Shown piece after piece: positions 3,669-62,560 of a stretch of DNA of 64,000 nucleotides (within the stretch, counting starts at the first letter, position 1; each line of letters starts with the position of its first letter). The translations under genes and the position numbers were made by a program. Below the pieces are notes generated by a model, which was given only the letters and a program-made list of their open reading frames with translations, was not told where the DNA came from and ran no database searches. This DNA comes from Candidatus Phycocordibacter aenigmaticus (GTDB lineage Bacteria > Patescibacteriota > Minisyncoccia > Phycocordibacterales > Phycocordibacteraceae): assembly GCA_045401115.1 (NCBI GenBank), contig CP174359.1, positions 213,691 through 277,690 of the forward strand, read 5' to 3'.

Positions 3669-4592
3669 TTAGGCGCCGTCGTTGGTACCATCCTCAGTAG
3701 TTTCAGCTCCTGCTTCGAGGTTTGTTGAAACTTCAGCGGCTGCTTTGAGTTCAATAAATGCTGAGCGAAGCGCTTCATGTGCAGCACGTACACGTGCCTG
3801 TGCACTGCGCATAGCCTCACGAGTTTCACTGAATATTTCTTTAATTCGTTCACGGGTCAGTGATGCTGCATCGACAGACAATGCTACTTTAAGGTCGGCT
3901 TCAATAGCAGCAAGGTCACCTTCTGCTATTACTAATTCACTCACTGCAAGGTCAAGATATTCTTGTGCTACAGCGGTGTCACCGCCGGATTCAGCAATGA
4001 TATCAGTACGTGCTTGGAGACGTTCTGCAAGAGTATACATACGTTCTATAGCAGATCCTAAAACACGTGAGAAACGATCGAGATGGAGCTCTATACGTGC
4101 AGCAGCATCAGTGGCAACACGTTCCATAATTTCAGCACGTCGGTTTTCTTGTTCTTGCTCGCGTGTTGCTTGCTGGTCCTCAAAGGCTTCACGGCGAGTT
4201 TCGATAGTTGCACGTACTTCCGCGCGTCGGTCGGTAACGTCAATGTTTGCATTCGCATCCGCCTGTGTTTCGCGCCGTGCCTGAAGTGTTTCGATGTTTT
4301 TCTGTACTGCTTCGCGCCGTGTTTGTACTTCTTCTTTTAATAGGGTGCGTTGCTCTTCGATTCGTGCACGTGTTGCGTTTACATCAACTCTGAGTGATGC
4401 TTCTGTTTTTGCCCGGACGTTTGTGCCAGCATCATTTGGTCGTACCTGAACATCTGCATTATTGGTGGTCCGTACATCAACCCGCGCTGGTGGCTCCCGG
4501 TGTTCTTCTGCAAATACCACAGTACTGAGGAGAGTAAATGTAAGAATGATAATAAAGGTGAGAATACTGTATCGGTATATAGTGTGTGTCAT
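3669..4592 (-). CDS. hypothetical secreted or membrane-anchored coiled-coil protein
   Basis: 307 aa with an N-terminal signal/anchor (ILTFIIILTFTLLSTVVFA) followed by a long R/E/A/T-rich predicted coiled coil. Confidence 0.5.
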   Translation of the reverse strand: MTHTIYRYSILTFIIILTFTLLSTVVFAEEHREPPARVDVRTTNNADVQVRPNDAGTNVRAKTEASLRVDVNATRARIEEQRTLLKEEVQTRREAVQKNIETLQARRETQADANANIDVTDRRAEVRATIETRREAFEDQQATREQEQENRRAEIMERVATDAAARIELHLDRFSRVLGSAIERMYTLAERLQARTDIIAESGGDTAVAQEYLDLAVSELVIAEGDLAAIEADLKVALSVDAASLTRERIKEIFSETREAMRSAQARVRAAHEALRSAFIELKAAAEVSTNLEAGAETTEDGTNDGA

Positions 4593-44724: not shown

Positions 44725-47586
44725 ATGAAGCAACCTGGCGGTGAAGGTAATATCTCTCCCGAGCATCAATTGAATAAACTTCGTGAAAGCGAACGCTCCG
44801 GCGGTGACTCTGGCAGGGGTAGGCGTACCCGCTCAGGCGCAACTGATGTTGCAATAACTCCAGAAACCGAACAACTCACCACGCCACAATATGATACTCC
44901 AACACAGCATGAGGCAAGTGAAATACGTTTAAATCTCGCGCCGGACACGAATGATAAAGATATGGAACACCTCCTCAGTATCCTACAAGATTCAGGGTGG
45001 AAAGCGGTGCGTAAAGAGTTAGATCGTATCAATAACCCGCATATTGAAGACGACTTTCACCGCTTATTGGTGCAGTATAAAAAAGACGGACATGAAATAC
45101 CGGGGCTGAATAAAAATGACCCACTCAACGAAGCACTTAATTTCATGCTTTTTGAAATTGCTATTCCTGTCAGTGGTAGCGGCGCAGGAGAGAAAACACT
45201 GAAAGATATTTTTGTACAAATGGAGCAATTGTATTTAGCTATCGTTCCTTACTTCAGTGTCCCAGACCCAGTGTTTTTTAAAGGACCGCGTAAACGGACC
45301 GCGCTATTCCCTGAACATTTTACTCTTGAGCTCGCGGTCAGACAGGGGAGTGAAGATGCAACATTTTATATAGCGATTGATCGCTCAAAGCGAGAGTTTT
45401 TTGAAAAACAAGTATTTTCCATCTTTCCTAAAGCAATTATTAATGAGGTGCAGGATGATTATAATATTTTTAATCAATTCGGCGAGACTGTTGCCTCAAA
45501 AGGGCGCTACGCGCGTGGCCAAGCCACTCCGATTAATACCGGGGCAAAGTTTGATTACGATCCGATGAACGTTACACTTGCTGCGTTTTCCAAAATAGCA
45601 AAAGAAGGAGAGGGAGCCGCTATTCAATTTTCTGTTTCACCGGCGGGTGATTATCTGAAAGACCAGGTGCGTGAGTGTTACTTTGAAGCACAAAAAGGTG
45701 CGGGTCTTATCAAGGCACAGCAAAAATGGTTTTTGTTCGGTAAACATCCATGGAGTCGACGTATCTGGCCGTTGTTGTGGAAGTGGTTTTCCGGTTTTTT
45801 CAAAAGCGGAGAAGAAGAAAAGAAAGATAAAGCACCTGATTCAATCGTGACGACTGCGATGGCAGAAAAAATGAAAAGTCCGGTCATGGGAGCAAACTTG
45901 CGACTCGTTGCTTCAGCGCGTACGAAATCTCGCGCCGAGTCAATTCTTTCAGAGCTCGAGCTCTCATTTGGTCAATTTGAAAATTCAGAAGGTAACCGAT
46001 TCCGATTTACTCGTGTTGATAACAAAAAAGAGCTGCGGACGTTTTTGCGCCAATTTATTTTCAGACAATTCGAACCAGGGTTTAAGGAGGATCCAATGAT
46101 TCTTTGGTTGCTTCCGTGGTTTGGAAGAGACTATATGCTCTTTGATAAGCATACATTGTATTTGAACCTTGCCGAACTTGCGGCGGCGTACCACATCAGT
46201 ATTGGTGGCGGGTCATCGTCGCGTGAATTGAAATCATCAGGATCGGCAAAAGCCCCTGCACCGATGAACCTGTCTGACGAAGGTATTGTGTTGGGTGAAA
46301 ACACATTTGGTGGACGTACACAACAGATTCACTTTGACCCTGATGACCGCTTGCGCCATTTTTATGCCATCGGACAAACCGGTACTGGTAAAACAACATT
46401 ACTCAAGCAGATGATTACACAAGATATTGAAAACGGGGAAGGGGTTTGTTTTATTGACCCCCACGGAGTCGATGTTCAGGATATTTTAAGTCGTATACCG
46501 AAAGAACGATATGACGATGTTATTTATTTTGACCCAGCACATACAGAACGCCCTATGGGTATGAACATGTTGGAGTTTGATCCACGCTTTCCTGAACAGA
46601 AGACTTTTGTGGTGGATGAAATGTTTAAAATCTTCCAAAAACTGTACGGTAAGTCGAATCCAGAAGCATTTGGTCCGGTATTCGAAACCTATTTCCGTAA
46701 TGCGACTCTTCTGGTGCTTGAAGATCCGGAGACTGGTTCAACGCTTATGGATATTTCGCGCGTGCTTTCAGATGATGACTTCCGTCATTACAAGCTGTCA
46801 CGCTCGAACAACCCGGTAGTGAATCACTTCTGGGAGGAGGTGGCTGAACAGGTGCGTGGTGAAGGTGACTTACGCAACGTCGTGCCATACATTACCTCGA
46901 AGTTCGATATCTTCATTGCCAATGAGATTATGCGCCCGATTATCGGGCAACAACGTAGTGCCTTTACCATGAGTGACATTATGGAAAATAAAAAAATCCT
47001 TTTGGTCAATCTCTCAAAAGGACGTCTTGGTGATGTAAACGCAGACCTCATCGGGCTGGTTATTGTCGGTAAAATCTTGATGGCAGCACTGGCGCGTTCT
47101 GAAACATTGAATACAAAATATCACGCACCGTTCTATCTCTATATGGATGAGTTCCAAAATATTACTACCAACTCAATCGCTACCATTCTTTCTGAGGCGC
47201 GTAAGTATGGTCTCTCACTTACGATTGCCCATCAATATATTAAACAGCTGAGCCCTACCATTTCAGAGGCGGTATTTGGTAACGTGGGTTCAATGGCTGC
47301 GTTCCGTATTGGCTCCGAAGACGCACAATTTTTGGAAAGGCAGTACGCTCCGGAGTTCACTGCAAAAGACATGGTAAATATTGATAACTATAATGCATAT
47401 GTGCGCATGCTTGCAAAAGGAAAGCCGGTCGATCCATTTTCTTTAGAAACACTTCCATTTATTAGTGGCGAGGCAACACAAGTTGAGGCGCTCAAGCATA
47501 TGTCATATCAACGGTATGGGCGTCAACGCGCTGCTGTTGAAGAGGAAATTCGAGAGAAATACCAAGGTATGCGCGGTATAAAATAA
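44725..47586 (+). CDS. large P-loop ATPase of the FtsK-HerA superfamily (HerA/TraD/TraG-like C-terminal half, about 500 aa N-terminal region of unknown function)
   Basis: 953 aa with Walker A YAIGQTGTGKTTLL, Walker B FYLYMDEFQNI, and the downstream RK-G...Q...QL block (ARKYGLSLTIAHQYIKQL) typical of HerA/TraD/TraG coupling-type ATPases. No N-terminal TM helices. Confidence 0.6.
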   Translation: MKQPGGEGNISPEHQLNKLRESERSGGDSGRGRRTRSGATDVAITPETEQLTTPQYDTPTQHEASEIRLNLAPDTNDKDMEHLLSILQDSGWKAVRKELDRINNPHIEDDFHRLLVQYKKDGHEIPGLNKNDPLNEALNFMLFEIAIPVSGSGAGEKTLKDIFVQMEQLYLAIVPYFSVPDPVFFKGPRKRTALFPEHFTLELAVRQGSEDATFYIAIDRSKREFFEKQVFSIFPKAIINEVQDDYNIFNQFGETVASKGRYARGQATPINTGAKFDYDPMNVTLAAFSKIAKEGEGAAIQFSVSPAGDYLKDQVRECYFEAQKGAGLIKAQQKWFLFGKHPWSRRIWPLLWKWFSGFFKSGEEEKKDKAPDSIVTTAMAEKMKSPVMGANLRLVASARTKSRAESILSELELSFGQFENSEGNRFRFTRVDNKKELRTFLRQFIFRQFEPGFKEDPMILWLLPWFGRDYMLFDKHTLYLNLAELAAAYHISIGGGSSSRELKSSGSAKAPAPMNLSDEGIVLGENTFGGRTQQIHFDPDDRLRHFYAIGQTGTGKTTLLKQMITQDIENGEGVCFIDPHGVDVQDILSRIPKERYDDVIYFDPAHTERPMGMNMLEFDPRFPEQKTFVVDEMFKIFQKLYGKSNPEAFGPVFETYFRNATLLVLEDPETGSTLMDISRVLSDDDFRHYKLSRSNNPVVNHFWEEVAEQVRGEGDLRNVVPYITSKFDIFIANEIMRPIIGQQRSAFTMSDIMENKKILLVNLSKGRLGDVNADLIGLVIVGKILMAALARSETLNTKYHAPFYLYMDEFQNITTNSIATILSEARKYGLSLTIAHQYIKQLSPTISEAVFGNVGSMAAFRIGSEDAQFLERQYAPEFTAKDMVNIDNYNAYVRMLAKGKPVDPFSLETLPFISGEATQVEALKHMSYQRYGRQRAAVEEEIREKYQGMRGIK

Positions 47587-47701: not shown

Positions 47702-48301
47702 ATGAAATTTGAAAAACAACAAACGCTTTTAATTATAAAACCGGACGGCGTACAACGTTCACTTATTGGCGAAATAATTTCGCGTATTGAGCGAGTAGGA
47801 CTTAAAATCGTCGGTCTTAAGTTGGTAGTACCTACACGCGACCAACTCATTACTCACTACAACAAAGATGATGCATGGTTCTTAAAGAAAGGGGAAAATA
47901 TTGTTCAAAATAGAAAAGAAAATAATCTCCCAATAGAAAAAGAACCGATCGAATATGGACGTGAAATTATCGAACAACTGGTAACATTCATGACCACTGG
48001 TCCGGTTGTGGCTATGGTGGTACGTGGTAACGAAGCGGTACATATTGTTAAAAAACTTGTCGGCGAGACACAACCGTCTACATCAGATGTTGGTACAATC
48101 CGTGGCGATTATACGCTTGATTCATATGAACATGCTGGCATGCAAGAACGCGCAGTTCGCAATCTCGTGCATTGTTCTGACGAGTTTGAAGAGGCAAAAC
48201 GAGAAATCGACATTTGGTTTGCTGAGAATGAAATTGTAAACTATCGTCTTGTACCGGAAAGCATACTCTACGACGTAAACCTTGACGGTATTTTAGAATA
48301 G
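47702..48301 (+). CDS. ndk: nucleoside diphosphate kinase (with an internal insertion)
   Basis: Motifs TLLIIKPDGVQR and NLVHCSD (the active-site His region), with about 199 aa overall. Confidence 0.8.
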   Translation: MKFEKQQTLLIIKPDGVQRSLIGEIISRIERVGLKIVGLKLVVPTRDQLITHYNKDDAWFLKKGENIVQNRKENNLPIEKEPIEYGREIIEQLVTFMTTGPVVAMVVRGNEAVHIVKKLVGETQPSTSDVGTIRGDYTLDSYEHAGMQERAVRNLVHCSDEFEEAKREIDIWFAENEIVNYRLVPESILYDVNLDGILE

Positions 48302-48330: not shown

Positions 48331-48358
48331 AAAAAACTCCCCGAGGGGGGAGTTTTTT
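48331..48358 (+). terminator. rho-independent terminator after ndk (CTCCCCGAGGGGGGAG followed by T-run)
   Basis: GC hairpin plus T6 run. Confidence 0.6.
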
Positions 48359-48535
48359 GTGTAGTGGTACACTATAAATAGGGTTGTTGGTTAGATTCAT
48401 TAACCACTGAAGAAAACCCTCGGGAGCCTTACATCAGCTGGCTCGGGATGCGCCTTTAGAGGCACCGATGAGTCTGTCTTGCGGGCACCCACCTAAGTAA
48501 TTAGGTTAATGAGGATTCCAATAGCCCTTGCATAA
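48359..48535 (+). ncRNA. candidate structured small RNA (long imperfect hairpin, 6S-like architecture) bounded by two terminators
   Basis: About 175 nt with no ORF. The 5' arm GGGTTGTTGG...TCATTAACC (48381-48405) pairs with the 3' arm GGTTAATGA...CCAATAGCCC (48505-48528), and it ends at the terminator at 48534-48565. Confidence 0.3.
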
Positions 48536-48591
48536 AAACCCGTCCTTTTCATTGGACGGGTTTTTATATAGGGATACGGTATACTATTTCT

Positions 48592-48975
48592 ATGAATAAT
48601 GCGCGCCAGCAATTGGTCCTCGCTGTCGTTCTTTTAGGACTCTCTATTGCGTTTCTCCAACACCTGGCGAGCATGTACTACCTGTATTGGATATTTTGGT
48701 GGTATGACATCATTATGCATCTCCTCGGTGGTGCGTTTGTGGCACTCTTATTTTTTTGGGCGCACCGCGCTTTCCCTGTGCTACCAATGAGCCGACAGCT
48801 ACTGTTCCCGGTCACACTACTGGTAGTGCTTATTATTGGGATATTGTGGGAAGTTTTTGAGTATGTCACTGGTTCATACGGAGCGGTTAATTACACACTT
48901 GATACCACGCTTGACCTTGCTATGGATATCGCTGGTATGATGAGTGCATATATCCTTTTCAAACGTTATGTCTGA
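48592..48975 (+). CDS. small polytopic membrane protein (VanZ-like pattern)
   Basis: 127 aa with 4 TM segments and D..H...G and EVFEY motifs. Confidence 0.45.
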   Translation: MNNARQQLVLAVVLLGLSIAFLQHLASMYYLYWIFWWYDIIMHLLGGAFVALLFFWAHRAFPVLPMSRQLLFPVTLLVVLIIGILWEVFEYVTGSYGAVNYTLDTTLDLAMDIAGMMSAYILFKRYV

Positions 48976-50578: not shown

Positions 50579-50929
50579 TTATTTTACGAGTGATTTCATC
50601 GTGCGTTCAAACACCTCAGGGTAGTGCTCAGCAAGGCGCGCAAGCACTGGGCGATTCAAATCAACACCTTTTTCCTTGAGTGATTTGATGAACGTTGAGT
50701 AGTTAGCAAAACCATTTTCGCGTACTCCGGCATTGACCTTCACAATAGCGGTACGGCGCATCACGCGTTTTTTATTCTTACGATCACGGAACATGTATGT
50801 CCGTGCTTTCAACAATGCTTCTTTAGCTGCTTTGGTTTTTTTGCTACGTGCAAAGCGAAAACCCTTTGCCGCTTTCAAGACATTACGTTTTGTTTTTTTC
50901 TTTATGATTCCTCGTTTTACTCGTGCCAT
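50579..50929 (-). CDS. rplT: 50S ribosomal protein L20
   Basis: Starts MARVKRG and is basic throughout, with the L20 pattern. Confidence 0.9.
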   Translation of the reverse strand: MARVKRGIIKKKTKRNVLKAAKGFRFARSKKTKAAKEALLKARTYMFRDRKNKKRVMRRTAIVKVNAGVRENGFANYSTFIKSLKEKGVDLNRPVLARLAEHYPEVFERTMKSLVK

Positions 50930-50959
50930 AGGTCGTTTTCGTTAGTTTCAGTATATAAA

Positions 50960-51145
50960 TTATGCACCCGGCAAGAAACGGGACTTTGCCTTATTGCTCA
51001 TAGTAATTGACGCATTCTTACGCTTTGCCGACTTTGCTTGTGAATTCTCTTTGGCATTGAAGTGGTTTTGTCCACTCTTACGCGCAATAAGCTTACCGGT
51101 TTTGGTAACGCGAATACGTTTCGTGAATGACTTGTTTGTTTTCAT
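50960..51145 (-). CDS. rpmI: 50S ribosomal protein L35
   Basis: 61 aa basic protein with KRIRVTKTGKLIARK. Confidence 0.8.
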   Translation of the reverse strand: MKTNKSFTKRIRVTKTGKLIARKSGQNHFNAKENSQAKSAKRKNASITMSNKAKSRFLPGA

Positions 51146-52365: not shown

Positions 52366-53033
52366 ATAGGGGCATTATAGCAGGGGAGGGAGAGCTCAAA
52401 GTAAAAATCTCAAGGACCGACCTTGAGATTTTTATTCGTTTTTCAACCACATCCGCCACCTCAAATGTTTTTTGGGTAATTTTTATTGTTAGGCTGAGTT
52501 TTTTGAAACTTGGTTCCATTCTCGCTCTTGTCGTCGTCGGTCGCGTTTTGGTGCACTCCATGGCGCTCTTTCGATTTTAGCTGCCTGGAGAATTGCACGC
52601 ACAATTGCGTGTAAGCCTTTAAAACTTACTCTGAAAGGTGTAAGAATCGCTTCACTATGAGAAGACGGGTGTGATAAGTGGTGTTTTTCTTTAATAGACA
52701 TAATTCAGTTTAAATATATTAAGTTACTCTTTAATGAGGATAATGTAACAATCTTATATTTTTGTCAAATATGGGGCGTGTATATATTTTATACACCTTC
52801 GGCGTAAAAAAGTATGGGCACCGCTGGACGCGGCTCGGCTTTTCATTTTCACCAGCAACTCAGCGAAAATGAAATATGCCTGCGACATTGTTTTGTTATG
52901 ATCGAAGGGAATTAGAAAACAAGAAGTGCCCTTGTGGTGCGCCGGTTCGTTACCCACGAAAGCAAAGCAGTTTGCTTTCTCTCACCTCCTCAATAAGAAA
53001 AACCGCCTGCCAGGCGGTTTCATTGGTGGAGGT

Positions 53034-53417
53034 GGGGGGTAACGAACCCCCGTCCAAAAAATTTCTTGCATTATGACTCTACAAAACATAGTTCGCTTTC
53101 AAAGGTTTAAATATCGTGTGTATAAAGCGAACCAAATCGCACGGTATCGAGTTCTTAATTTTCGAGAAAGAGGCGAACAATTTCTTTCCGTATCCTGATG
53201 AATATAACACCACCGTTCCCGTATCAGGAGTCAAAGAAGGTGATGTCACTTAGGCCGTAGCGTAAGCGAACTGGAAGTCCTTAGCAGTAAAGTAAGGGCT
53301 TACAGCATTTTTTACAGCGTTTGCACGTTGTAGTTACTCGAGGTTTTAGGTGTTCTCCAGTATTCACCGTTTTGCACATAATGTTTCCATTTCTTGTCGA
53401 AACGTAAGTCACCCCCC
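53034..53417 (-). ncRNA. ssrA: tmRNA (transfer-messenger RNA)
   Basis: The minus-strand 5' end GGGGGUGACUUACGUUUCGACAAG pairs with the 3' end GGACGGGGGUUCGUUACCCCCCACCUCCACCA to form a tRNA-like acceptor and T-arm. An internal tag frame ends FAYATA-UAA. It sits beside smpB and is followed by the terminator hairpin at 53008-53031. Confidence 0.8.
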
Positions 53418-56814: not shown

Positions 56815-56888
56815 CCACCCGTAGCTCAGTTGGTAGTAGCACCGAGCTTATATCTCGGCGGTCCCTGGTTCGAGTCCAGGCGGGTGGA
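56815..56888 (+). tRNA. tRNA-Ile, anticodon UAU (AUA-decoding), no encoded CCA
   Basis: Cloverleaf with acceptor CCACCCG/CGGGTGG, U8 and A9, anticodon stem CCGAG/CTCGG, loop CTTATAT, T-arm CCTGG-TTCGAGT-CCAGG and discriminator A. Confidence 0.65.
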
Positions 56889-62470: not shown

Positions 62471-62560
62471 GGAGAGTTGGCTGAGTGGTCGAAAGCGCAT
62501 CCCTGCTAAGGATGTAGGGGGGAAACCCCCTCGAGGGTTCGAATCCCTCACTCTCCGCCA
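62471..62560 (+). tRNA. tRNA-Ser, anticodon GCU, long variable arm, CCA encoded
   Basis: Acceptor GGAGAGT/ACTCTCC, anticodon stem CATCC/GGATG with loop CTGCTAA, variable-arm hairpin TAGGGGGGAAACCCCCTC and T-arm GAGGG-TTCGAAT-CCCTC. Confidence 0.8.

What the first reader, a model, noticed from the sequence alone, without database searches (positions are those of the whole stretch)
48359..48535. ORF-free, terminator-bounded ~175-nt element with long-hairpin architecture (candidate 6S-like or other small RNA) downstream of ndk
A strong terminator (48331-48358) ends ndk and a second one (48534-48565) lies 175 nt later. The segment between them has no ORF. Its 5' arm GGGTTGTTGGTTAGATTCATTAACC can pair with its 3' arm GGTTAATGAGGATTCCAATAGCCC, using G-U wobbles and an internal loop. 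The two arms enclose about 100 nt with further local hairpins (GAGCC...GGCTC). A long irregular hairpin with a central loop is the shape of 6S RNA and of many regulatory sRNAs. It could also be a long structured 3' UTR.
Basis: seen in the sequence. Interest (0 to 1): 0.5.

Follow-up and report, generated by a model that had tools for sequence, protein, structure and literature searches.

The report
Divergent 6S-type RNA gene in Patescibacteria
The ORF-free segment after ndk is a separate small-RNA gene, conserved with compensatory base changes across many ultra-small (CPR/Patescibacteria) bacteria, and it has the shape and key nucleotides of 6S RNA, the RNA that blocks RNA polymerase by imitating an open promoter, yet the curated 6S model misses it.

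Summary
Window 48380-48529 (+) lies between two intrinsic terminators, has no + strand ORF of 20 aa or more, and folds much better than shuffles.

It is a gene, not chance. A model built only from four other species finds it at 53 bits (E 2.5e-10). A second model finds one copy in the window and copies in 28 related Patescibacteria loci, nearly always between ndk and a beta-CASP RNase gene. 24 of 27 copies have a clear -10-like box 5-10 nt upstream, and nearly all have a terminator just downstream. The fold is supported by covariation: 89.9% of cells pair, against 61.6% in shuffles and 37-45% with partners slid, and all 43 pairs show double changes.

The architecture is that of 6S RNA: closing stem, 14-21 nt 5' bubble, apical stem (GGG-A-GNNN/NNNC-A-CCC), a nearly invariant CACCCACCU at the 3' edge of the bubble, and a 3'-bubble hairpin that competes with the closing stem. 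Rfam 6S is the best or only hit in four of five elements tested, in the same register in the three alignments inspected, but below threshold (15-29 bits against 46.4).

Verdict: probable lineage-specific, shortened 6S RNA. Expression, polymerase binding and pRNA synthesis are untested.

The parts
47702..48301 (+). ndk (nucleoside-diphosphate kinase, 199 aa). It is the upstream neighbour and the synteny anchor.
   Evidence: ORF. Pfam NDK E 6e-41. Homologues are named NDK in Patescibacteria.
48331..48358 (+). Intrinsic terminator of ndk (CUCCCC-GA-GGGGGAG followed by a U-run).
   Evidence: Terminator scan. Sequence.
48365..48373 (+). Extended -10-like promoter box TGgTACACT. The RNA 5' end (A 48380) lies 7 nt downstream of it.
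   Evidence: Sequence. 24 of 27 family members have a clear TATACT/TATAAT/TAGAAT-type box 5-10 nt upstream of the 5' end, and L001 has the same 6-nt spacing as the window. The strict sigma-70 scan did not call it, so it is inferred.
48380..48529 (+). Core of the 6S-type RNA (150 nt). The likely primary transcript is 48380 to about 48565, including the terminator hairpin.
   Evidence: CM R1, built without the window: 53.4 bits, E 2.5e-10. CM R2: 82.3 bits, the only hit in the 64 kb. Rfam RF00013 over the full model, 15.8 bits.
48380..48390 (+). Outer closing stem, 5' strand (AGGGUUGUUGG). It pairs with 48518-48528 (CCAAUAGCCCU).
   Evidence: Folds. Covariation of helix 1: 92.6% paired, 10 of 10 pairs with double changes. 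Also seen on the sequence-only alignment.
48396..48405 (+). Inner closing stem (P2), 5' strand (UUCAUUAACC). It pairs with 48504-48513 (GGUUAAUGAG).
   Evidence: Folds. Helix 2: 85.6% paired, 13 of 13 pairs with double changes.
48406..48421 (+). 5' strand of the central bubble (ACUGAAGAAAACCCUC, 16 nt). It is the presumed template region for product RNA, together with the P2 5' strand.
   Evidence: Unpaired in the family consensus. Aligned to the 5' central bubble of RF00013. The template role is inferred.
48422..48429 (+). Base of the apical stem (P3), 5' strand GGG-A-GCCU. It pairs with 48483-48490 (GGGC-A-CCC) with a conserved A.A mismatch (48425/48487).
   Evidence: Helix 3: 97.3% paired, 7 of 7 pairs with double changes. 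Also seen in the MAFFT alignments. Caveat: pair probability is only about 0.004 in the single-sequence ensemble.
48430..48482 (+). Variable apical domain: a conserved internal loop (UACAUC / UGC), then an irregular hairpin.
   Evidence: Its length varies widely between relatives. Helices 4-6 covary.
48486..48494 (+). CACCCACCU block, invariant in the 18-sequence set and near-invariant across the family. It spans the 3' strand of P3 and the start of the 3' bubble.
   Evidence: Invariant in the 18-sequence alignment. Matches the upper-case CCCACCU of the RF00013 consensus in register.
48491..48506 (+). 3' strand of the central bubble (48491-48503), with the hairpin ACCUAA-GUAA-UUAGGU. The last 3 nt of the hairpin (48504-48506) are also the start of the P2 3' strand.
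   Evidence: When the 3' half is folded on its own, this hairpin forms and overlaps the P2 3' strand in 25 of 27 members. The hairpin stem covaries (helix 7).
48534..48565 (+). Intrinsic terminator of the RNA gene (AAAAACCCGUCC-UUUUCAUU-GGACGGGUUUUU).
   Evidence: Fold. Nearly all family members have a GC-rich hairpin plus a U-run 2-12 nt after the closing stem.

Best explanation
Window 48380-48529 (+) encodes the 6S-type RNA (ssrS equivalent) of a Patescibacteria/CPR bacterium.

Shown here:
- It is a conserved, independently bounded, non-coding gene.
- Covariation supports a rod-shaped fold: a closing stem of about 21-25 bp, a large central bubble, and an apical stem.
- The near-invariant nucleotides (CC | bubble | GGG ... 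CACCCACCU ... GGU) sit where the Rfam 6S consensus has its conserved positions.

Inferred mechanism, from what is established for E. coli and B. subtilis 6S RNA:
- The RNA imitates an open promoter and occupies the housekeeping sigma-RNA polymerase holoenzyme.
- The conserved 3'-bubble block plays the '-10-like' role, the apical stem acts as the upstream duplex, and the closing stem as the downstream duplex.
- When NTPs rise, the polymerase copies the 5' bubble and the P2 5' strand (roughly 48392-48410) into a short product RNA.
- This frees the P2 3' strand. Its AGGU then pairs with the ACCU of the 3' bubble and extends the 3'-bubble hairpin, and the RNA is released.

The CPR version is short, 120-168 nt between the closing-stem ends.
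For: 1. Real, conserved gene.
- CM R1, built from four other species, scores the window at 53.4 bits, E 2.5e-10.
- CM R2 finds exactly one copy in the window and copies in 26 of 80 ndk loci, plus L047 and a weaker L016 with filters off.

2. Structure.
- On the 27-sequence CM alignment, 89.9% of cells pair, against 61.6 +/- 1.0% in shuffles and 37-45% with partners slid.
- All 43 pairs have double changes. 278 cells are double-changed, against 86 +/- 8 in shuffles. The covariation score is 0.603 against 0.176.
- On a sequence-only MAFFT alignment, the outer closing stem and P3 give 85.9% paired, against 74.4% in shuffles and 43-51% slid, with 41 double-changed cells against 14.7.

3. Own transcription unit and strand.
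- 24 of 27 members have a clear -10-like box 5-10 nt upstream of the 5' end, and nearly all have a terminator just after the 3' end.
- Many G.U pairs would be A.C on the other strand, and R2 gives no antisense hits.

4. Link to 6S.
- RF00013 is the only family aligning to the whole element. Window: 15.8 bits over model positions 1-187, E 0.18. L014: 15.1 bits over 1-187. L058: 22 bits over 1-187. L025: 28.6 bits, the only hit among 4227 families, E 1.7e-4.
- In the three alignments inspected (window, L014, L025), GGGAG aligns to the consensus GGGag and CACCCACCU to caCCCACCU. In the window and L025 the P2 3' strand also aligns to GGuUC, and in L014 it lies further 3' in the alignment.

5. 6S-type features described in PMC8876501.
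- Rod with a central bubble, a '-10-like' determinant in the 3' bubble, and a 3'-bubble hairpin involving the P2 3' strand. Here that hairpin overlaps P2 in 25 of 27 members.
- Truncated 6S-1 RNAs still complete the 6S cycle in vitro, so a short 6S is plausible.
Against: - All scores against Rfam RF00013 are below the 46.4-bit gathering cut-off. No hit reached gathering level in the window or in 17 member loci, and L063 gives no 6S hit at all.
- The reciprocal test failed. The CPR model R2 does not detect E. coli ssrS in its locus, only terminator-like hairpins.
- For the window sequence alone, the consensus rod (-51.4 kcal/mol) is 4.5 kcal/mol worse than the MFE multibranch fold (-55.9), and P3 has a pair probability of about 0.004.
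- Relative to the Rfam model the closing stem lacks about 15 bp on each side.
- There is no expression, polymerase-binding or pRNA evidence.
- A canonical 6S elsewhere in these genomes cannot be excluded, because only 64 kb of the window and about 6.6 kb per relative were available.
Confidence: 0.8

Rival explanations
1. A CPR-specific structured small RNA that only resembles 6S in shape. It would have a different partner or function, for example a protein sponge or scaffold, or a substrate or cofactor of the neighbouring beta-CASP RNase.
For: - Sub-threshold Rfam scores everywhere.
- The family model does not recognise E. coli 6S.
- Strictly conserved placement between ndk and a beta-CASP RNase gene could point to a local functional link.
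Against: - The near-invariant nucleotides coincide in register with the conserved positions of the 6S consensus.
- L025 hits 6S alone among 4227 families at E 1.7e-4.
- Bubble sizes, the 3'-bubble hairpin and its competition with P2 match described 6S behaviour.
- 6S RNAs are known for weak sequence conservation (PMC8876501), so the E. coli failure is weak evidence.
Confidence: 0.13
2. A cis-acting element: a structured 3' UTR of ndk, or a leader or riboswitch controlling the downstream membrane-protein and beta-CASP RNase genes.
For: - It always lies in the ndk to beta-CASP RNase intergenic space.
- In several relatives (L001, L003, L004) only about 26-33 nt separate the ndk stop from the RNA and no terminator intervenes, so read-through from ndk is possible.
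Against: - In the window a strong terminator precedes it and another follows it.
- A -10-like box precedes, and a terminator follows, nearly every copy.
- A further TATACT box (48578-48583) lies in front of the downstream ORF.
- The downstream 127-aa gene is present in only some loci, and L050 carries the element on the strand opposite to ndk.
- No riboswitch or leader family matches beyond terminator look-alikes.
Confidence: 0.04
3. No function: a chance palindromic spacer, a repeat or mobile remnant, or a small protein-coding gene.
For: - Mechanical 30-39 aa ORFs exist on the - strand.
- AT-rich intergenic DNA with terminators often folds well.
Against: - Conserved in 28 species at Ndk identities of only 59-72%.
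- Compensatory changes in all helices.
- Single copy in the window.
- The apical region varies widely in length, which is incompatible with a conserved reading frame.
- There is no + strand ORF of 20 aa or more.
Confidence: 0.02

Closest known systems
6S RNA (ssrS; Rfam RF00013), e.g. E. coli 6S and B. subtilis 6S-1
   Same: - Rod-shaped fold with a closing stem, a large central bubble and an apical stem.
- Conserved CC/GGG and CCCACCU...GG(U) nucleotides around the bubble, in the same register as the Rfam consensus.
- A hairpin in the 3' bubble that can extend into the 3' strand of the helix next to the bubble (P2, the downstream helix).
- A stand-alone small-RNA gene with its own promoter-like box and terminator.
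   Different: - Shorter: a 120-168 nt core, 150 nt here, against roughly 180-200 nt.
- The closing stem is about 15 bp shorter than the Rfam model.
- Scores are only 15-29 bits against the 46.4-bit cut-off.
- It is not detected reciprocally with E. coli ssrS.
- Its genomic context is ndk and a beta-CASP RNase, not the 5-formyltetrahydrofolate cyclo-ligase gene (fau) that follows E. coli ssrS.
- Binding to RNA polymerase and pRNA synthesis are untested.
B. subtilis 6S-1 type, with a pre-formed 3'-bubble hairpin
   Same: A short hairpin already forms in the 3' bubble of the free RNA (predicted in 25 of 27 members), as described for 6S-1 (PMC8876501).
   Different: Here the hairpin base (ACCU/AGGU) directly competes with the innermost P2 pairs. 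This is closer to the E. coli-type extension of the hairpin after P2 unwinding. A 'central bubble collapse helix' was not tested systematically. Only anecdotal complementarity was seen, for example CCUC 48418-48421 with GAGG 48511-48514.
Ms1 RNA of Actinobacteria (6S-like, binds core RNA polymerase)
   Same: A structured RNA with a 6S-related overall shape (PMC9130861 abstract).
   Different: From my own knowledge, Ms1 is about 300 nt and restricted to Actinobacteria. No Rfam match other than 6S covers this element.

Membership tests
6S RNA (Rfam RF00013, operational membership) | Covariance-model score at or above the curated gathering cut-off (46.4 bits). | tested here: not met
   Window 15.8 bits. 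L014 15.1, L058 22, L025 28.6. No hit at gathering level in the window or in 17 loci. By Rfam's own criterion it is therefore not a member, and the claim rests on the other rows.
6S RNA (biological definition) | Rod-shaped secondary structure: a closing stem formed by the 5' and 3' ends, a large and mostly unpaired central bubble, and an irregular apical stem (PMC8876501). | tested here: met
   Per-sequence folds. Consensus structure with covariation. The 5' bubble is 14-21 nt and the 3' bubble 13-24 nt. Caveat: the window's own MFE prefers a branched apical fold.
6S RNA (biological definition) | Conserved nucleotides flanking the central bubble, in the register of the 6S consensus (CC | 5' bubble | GGG ... 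CCCACCU ... GG-U). | tested here: met
   cmscan alignments of the window, L025 and L014 to RF00013 place GGGAG on GGGag and CACCCACCU on caCCCACCU. In the window and L025 the P2 3' strand also falls on GGuUC. These are the invariant columns of the 18-sequence alignment.
6S RNA (biological definition) | Potential for rearrangement: the 3' strand of the helix next to the bubble can re-pair with the 3' bubble (3'-bubble hairpin) once that helix is opened. | tested here: met
   When the 3' half is folded on its own, a hairpin forms in which (A)CCU pairs with nucleotides of the P2 3' strand in 25 of 27 members. This is a feature of many but not all 6S RNAs.
6S RNA (biological definition) | A discrete, abundant transcript of about 150-200 nt. 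| tested here: inconclusive
   A -10-like box and an intrinsic terminator bracket nearly every copy, which predicts a primary transcript of about 186 nt in the window. No expression data are available.
6S RNA (biological definition) | Binds the housekeeping sigma-RNA polymerase holoenzyme and competes with promoters. | not testable with these tools
   Needs RIP-seq, gel shift or in vitro transcription.
6S RNA (biological definition) | Serves as template for short product RNAs (pRNA) that trigger release. | not testable with these tools
   Needs small-RNA sequencing or in vitro assays. Predicted products would be complementary to about 48392-48410.
Bacterial SRP RNA (4.5S / ffs) | Match to an SRP covariance model. 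| tested here: not met
   No SRP family appears even at E <= 10 in the element. From my own knowledge, the SRP domain IV has a GNRA-type apical loop, whereas apical loops here are CUUG/UUCG-type.
Cis-regulatory leader / riboswitch / 3' UTR element | Part of the same transcript as the regulated gene, with no terminator separating it from that gene. | tested here: not met
   A terminator follows the element in nearly all members, and a -10-like box precedes it. The window has terminators on both sides. L050 carries it in the opposite orientation to ndk.

The most novel reading that the evidence does not exclude
The RNA is a minimal, CPR-specific polymerase-regulating RNA that is functionally tied to its two conserved neighbours.

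- Its release from polymerase depends on NTPs through pRNA synthesis, and could be coupled to Ndk, the enzyme that makes NTPs.
- Its turnover or maturation could depend on the adjacent CPSF-type beta-CASP RNase.
- Together these would form a compact growth-state switch in organisms with very few regulators.

Alternatively, it is not a polymerase ligand at all but a new RNA partner of that RNase.
Probability: 0.1. Interest if true: 0.6.

Novelty: new member of a known kind. Interest (0 to 1): 0.35.

Why it matters
- Annotation gap. 6S RNA is regarded as nearly universal in bacteria. Yet the curated model found nothing in this window or in 17 related Patescibacteria loci. The held literature contains no paper that discusses 6S RNA in Patescibacteria/CPR: the only co-mention is in an SRP-in-mitochondria paper that was not opened.
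- Practical use. A lineage-specific model such as R2 would let annotators find the gene across this very large group. It would also give a natural 'minimal' 6S of 120-168 nt, with a near-invariant CACCCACCU block, for studying which determinants RNA polymerase really needs.
- Biology. Bacteria with extremely reduced genomes appear to keep this global transcription brake.
- Limit. Mechanistically it is probably ordinary 6S biology, so the surprise is moderate.

Tried and rejected
- Rfam at gathering thresholds found only tmRNA and two tRNAs in the window, and nothing in 17 member loci.
- The other sub-threshold Rfam hits in the region (Phe/Thr/Leu leaders, STnc370, rnk leader and others) align only to the two terminators and were discarded.
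- RNAalifold on a plain MAFFT alignment of all 18 hand-trimmed copies predicted no pairs, because the variable segments were misaligned. An 8-sequence and a 4-sequence subset worked, and CM-based realignment followed.
- I began a hand-made segment alignment and dropped it in favour of the CM alignment plus the MAFFT control.
- One count of structure pairs failed because the structure string had the wrong length. It was repeated correctly.
- The reciprocal search of the E. coli ssrS locus with the CPR model was negative.
- An Rfam scan of the L063 copy gave no 6S hit.
- Literature searches for 6S RNA in Patescibacteria, CPR, OD1 or TM7 found nothing relevant. The main 6S survey paper is not in the searchable library.
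- SRP RNA, Ms1, riboswitch or leader, mobile repeat and small-protein readings were considered and rejected, as set out under the rivals and membership tests.

Full report
**1. The observation**

The window around the finding reads: ndk (47702-48301), a terminator, about 175 nt without a coding frame, a second terminator, then a 127-aa ORF.
- ndk is confirmed by Pfam (NDK, E 6e-41) and by homologues named nucleoside-diphosphate kinase in Patescibacteria.
- The first terminator (48331-48358) was found by the scan.
- The second (48534-48565) has a stem of 14-15 pairs with an 8-nt loop followed by Us. The simple scan missed it, but it dominates the fold.
- No + strand ORF of 20 aa or more lies inside 48359-48527. 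The - strand has only mechanical 30-39 aa ORFs.
- Folding energy is far below shuffles: z = -5.5 with the terminators and z = -3.5 for the core, with 0 of 200 shuffles as good.

**2. It is a conserved gene**

Ndk homologues place the window in Patescibacteria/CPR. I fetched 80 ndk loci from one genome per species.
- A 9-mer from the element, CACCCACCU, recurs on the ndk strand 130-260 nt after the ndk stop in 15 loci, and further downstream of ndk in three more.
- After trimming, 18 copies showed the same layout.
- A covariance model built from four of them, without the window (R1), scored the window element at 53.4 bits, E 2.5e-10. It also found about 20 further loci.
- A second model built from 15 copies (R2) found exactly one hit in the 64-kb window (82.3 bits). 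It found 26 loci at E <= 0.01 and gave no antisense hits.
- With filters off, L047 (29.6 bits) and a weaker L016 (18.6 bits) were added.

**3. Structure and covariation**

On the 27-sequence alignment:
- 89.9% of pair cells are standard pairs, against 61.6 +/- 1.0% after shuffling partners and 37-45% when partners are slid by 1-3 columns.
- All 43 pairs show changes on both sides.
- 278 cells carry double changes, against 86 +/- 8 in shuffles.
- The covariation score is 0.603 against 0.176.

That alignment is fitted to the model, so I repeated the count on the plain MAFFT alignment of 18 copies, using only the outer closing stem and the base of the apical stem. It gave 85.9% paired, against 74.4% shuffled and 43-51% slid, with 41 double-changed cells against 14.7 +/- 3.2. 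RNAalifold on an 8-sequence MAFFT alignment independently predicted the same helices, and 20 of 33 pairs had compensatory changes.

Many G.U pairs would be A.C on the other strand. Together with the promoter and terminator orientation, this fixes the + strand as the RNA strand.

**4. Anatomy in window coordinates**

- Outer closing stem: 48380-48390 with 48518-48528.
- Internal loop, then inner closing stem P2: 48396-48405 with 48504-48513.
- 5' bubble: 48406-48421.
- Base of the apical stem: GGG-A-GCCU (48422-48429) with GGGC-A-CCC (48483-48490), with a conserved A.A mismatch.
- Conserved internal loop (UACAUC / UGC), then a variable apical hairpin (48430-48482).
- 3' bubble: 48491-48503.
- The near-invariant block CACCCACCU (48486-48494) spans the edge of the 3' bubble.
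- The 3' bubble holds the hairpin ACCUAA-GUAA-UUAGGU (48491-48506). Its last three bases are also the first three bases of the P2 3' strand.
- Folding the 3' half on its own gives such an overlapping hairpin in 25 of 27 members. The hairpin stem itself covaries: CCUAA/UUAGG, CCUAC/GUAGG, CCUGG/CCAGG and others.

This is a real caveat. For the window sequence alone, the consensus rod is 4.5 kcal/mol less stable than the branched MFE fold, and P3 has a very low ensemble probability.

**5. A transcription unit of its own**

- 24 of 27 copies have a clear TATACT/TATAAT/TAGAAT-type box, often with an upstream TG, 5-10 nt before the 5' end.
- Nearly all have a GC-rich hairpin plus a U-run 2-12 nt after the closing stem.
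- In the window the box is TGgTACACT (48365-48373), and the RNA starts 7 nt later at A 48380, with the same spacing as in L001.
- In some relatives only about 26-33 nt separate the ndk stop from the RNA and no terminator intervenes. Read-through from ndk may therefore contribute there.
- One copy (L050) lies on the strand opposite to ndk.

**6. Genomic context**

The element tracks a synteny block: a 953-aa VirD4/TraD-like coupling ATPase, ndk, the element, sometimes a 127-aa membrane protein, then a beta-CASP RNase. Nearly every locus that keeps ndk followed by the beta-CASP RNase gene has the element between them. Nearly all loci without that arrangement, which include many labelled Moraniibacteriota, Falkowbacteria or Magasanikbacteria, have none within 3 kb of ndk. 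The exceptions are five weaker hits with no detected beta-CASP gene.

**7. What it is**

Against all 4227 Rfam families, the only one that aligns along the whole element is 6S RNA (RF00013).
- Window: 15.8 bits over model positions 1-187, E 0.18.
- L014: 15.1 bits over 1-187.
- L058: 22 bits over 1-187.
- L025: 28.6 bits, the single hit, E 1.7e-4 after correction for all families.
- In the three alignments inspected (window, L014, L025) the register is the same. The 5' bubble aligns to the 6S 5' bubble, GGGAG to the consensus GGGag, and CACCCACCU to caCCCACCU. In the window and L025 the P2 3' strand also aligns to GGuUC, and in L014 it lies further 3' in the alignment.

So the family's near-invariant positions are the conserved positions of the 6S consensus. 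The score deficit comes largely from a closing stem about 15 bp shorter than the model's.

The features that define 6S RNA are a rod with a central bubble, closing and apical stems with limited sequence identity, a '-10-like' determinant in the 3' bubble, and pRNA synthesis that unwinds P2. Depending on lineage, a 3'-bubble hairpin then forms or is stabilised. These are described in PMC8876501. That paper also shows that truncated 6S-1 RNAs still complete the cycle in vitro, so a 120-168 nt version is plausible.

**8. Evidence against**

- All Rfam scores are below the 46.4-bit cut-off.
- L063 gave no 6S hit.
- The CPR model does not find E. coli ssrS. That is weak evidence, because the E. coli ssrS sequence, as I recall it, lacks the GGGAG/CACCCACCU motifs, and 6S sequence identity is known to be low.
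- Nothing here shows expression, polymerase binding or pRNA synthesis.
- I could not scan whole genomes for a second, canonical 6S.

**9. Mechanism**

Shown: a conserved, structured, independently bounded RNA gene with 6S architecture and 6S-register conserved nucleotides.

Inferred: the RNA sequesters the housekeeping sigma-RNA polymerase as an open-promoter mimic. Product-RNA synthesis across the 5' bubble and the P2 5' strand frees AGGU of the P2 3' strand. AGGU then pairs with the ACCU of the 3' bubble, and this helps release.

**10. Rivals**

- A CPR-specific RNA with another partner: 0.13.
- A cis-acting UTR or leader: 0.04.
- Chance, repeat or coding: 0.02.

**11. Novelty and interest**

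In the held literature, no paper discusses 6S RNA in Patescibacteria/CPR. The only co-mention is in an SRP-in-mitochondria paper that was not opened, and the curated model misses the family. It is best described as a new, divergent and shortened member of a known kind. It is useful for annotation and as a natural minimal 6S, but mechanistically expected. Interest is 0.35.

Noticed in passing
window 53024-53416 (-): tmRNA gene (Rfam RF00023, 105.6 bits, full length).
   Followed up: no
window 56815-56888 (+) and 62471-62557 (+): Two tRNA genes (Rfam RF00005, 60 and 61.7 bits). The second is 87 nt, so it probably has a long variable arm.
   Followed up: no
window 44725-47586 (+): A 953-aa protein with weak VirD4/TraD/TrwB-type coupling-ATPase matches, all far below the NCBIfam cut-offs. 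It lies directly upstream of ndk. It is conserved in that position at 39-65% identity in most loci that carry the RNA. This is an odd housekeeping-looking neighbour for a conjugation-type ATPase.
   Followed up: partly
window 48944/48968-50338 (+): A beta-CASP metallo-beta-lactamase RNase of CPSF type. The best NCBIfam matches, both below cut-off, are type VII CRISPR Cas14 (379 bits) and archaeal aCPSF1 (314 bits), not RNase J. It is the conserved downstream neighbour of the RNA. In B. subtilis, RNase J1 processes 6S RNAs (PMC10578484 abstract), so an RNase next to a 6S-type gene may or may not be meaningful.
   Followed up: partly
window 48592-48975 (+): A 127-aa hydrophobic ORF with no Pfam or NCBIfam match. 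It overlaps the start of the RNase ORF and is present in only some related loci. A TATACT box lies at 48578-48583, just upstream.
   Followed up: partly
window 47702-48301 (+): Ndk is 199 aa, and the Pfam NDK match is split into two stretches. This suggests an insertion relative to the 135-position NDK profile. The 199-aa form is typical of the Patescibacteria homologues.
   Followed up: no
window 48418-48421 vs 48511-48514; L056 3693-3698 vs 3780-3785: The distal part of the 5' bubble is complementary to the 3' strand of the closing stem: CCUC/GAGG in the window and GGUUGC/GCAACC in L056. [quoted passage not shown] It was not tested across the family.
   Followed up: partly
L014 3901-3952: A segment just downstream of the RNA's terminator scores 40.4 bits against a miRNA model, identically on both strands. 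It is probably a perfect palindrome.
   Followed up: no
L041 4224-4336 (+): A sub-threshold match to Wolbachia sRNA 46 (RF02625, 39.4 bits, E 1.2e-4 in a 66-kb search), about 200 nt downstream of the 6S-type RNA. Unexplained.
   Followed up: no
window 50579-51145 (-): Two small basic ORFs of 116 and 61 aa look like ribosomal proteins L20 and L35. This is judged from their translations and my own knowledge, and was not searched.
   Followed up: no
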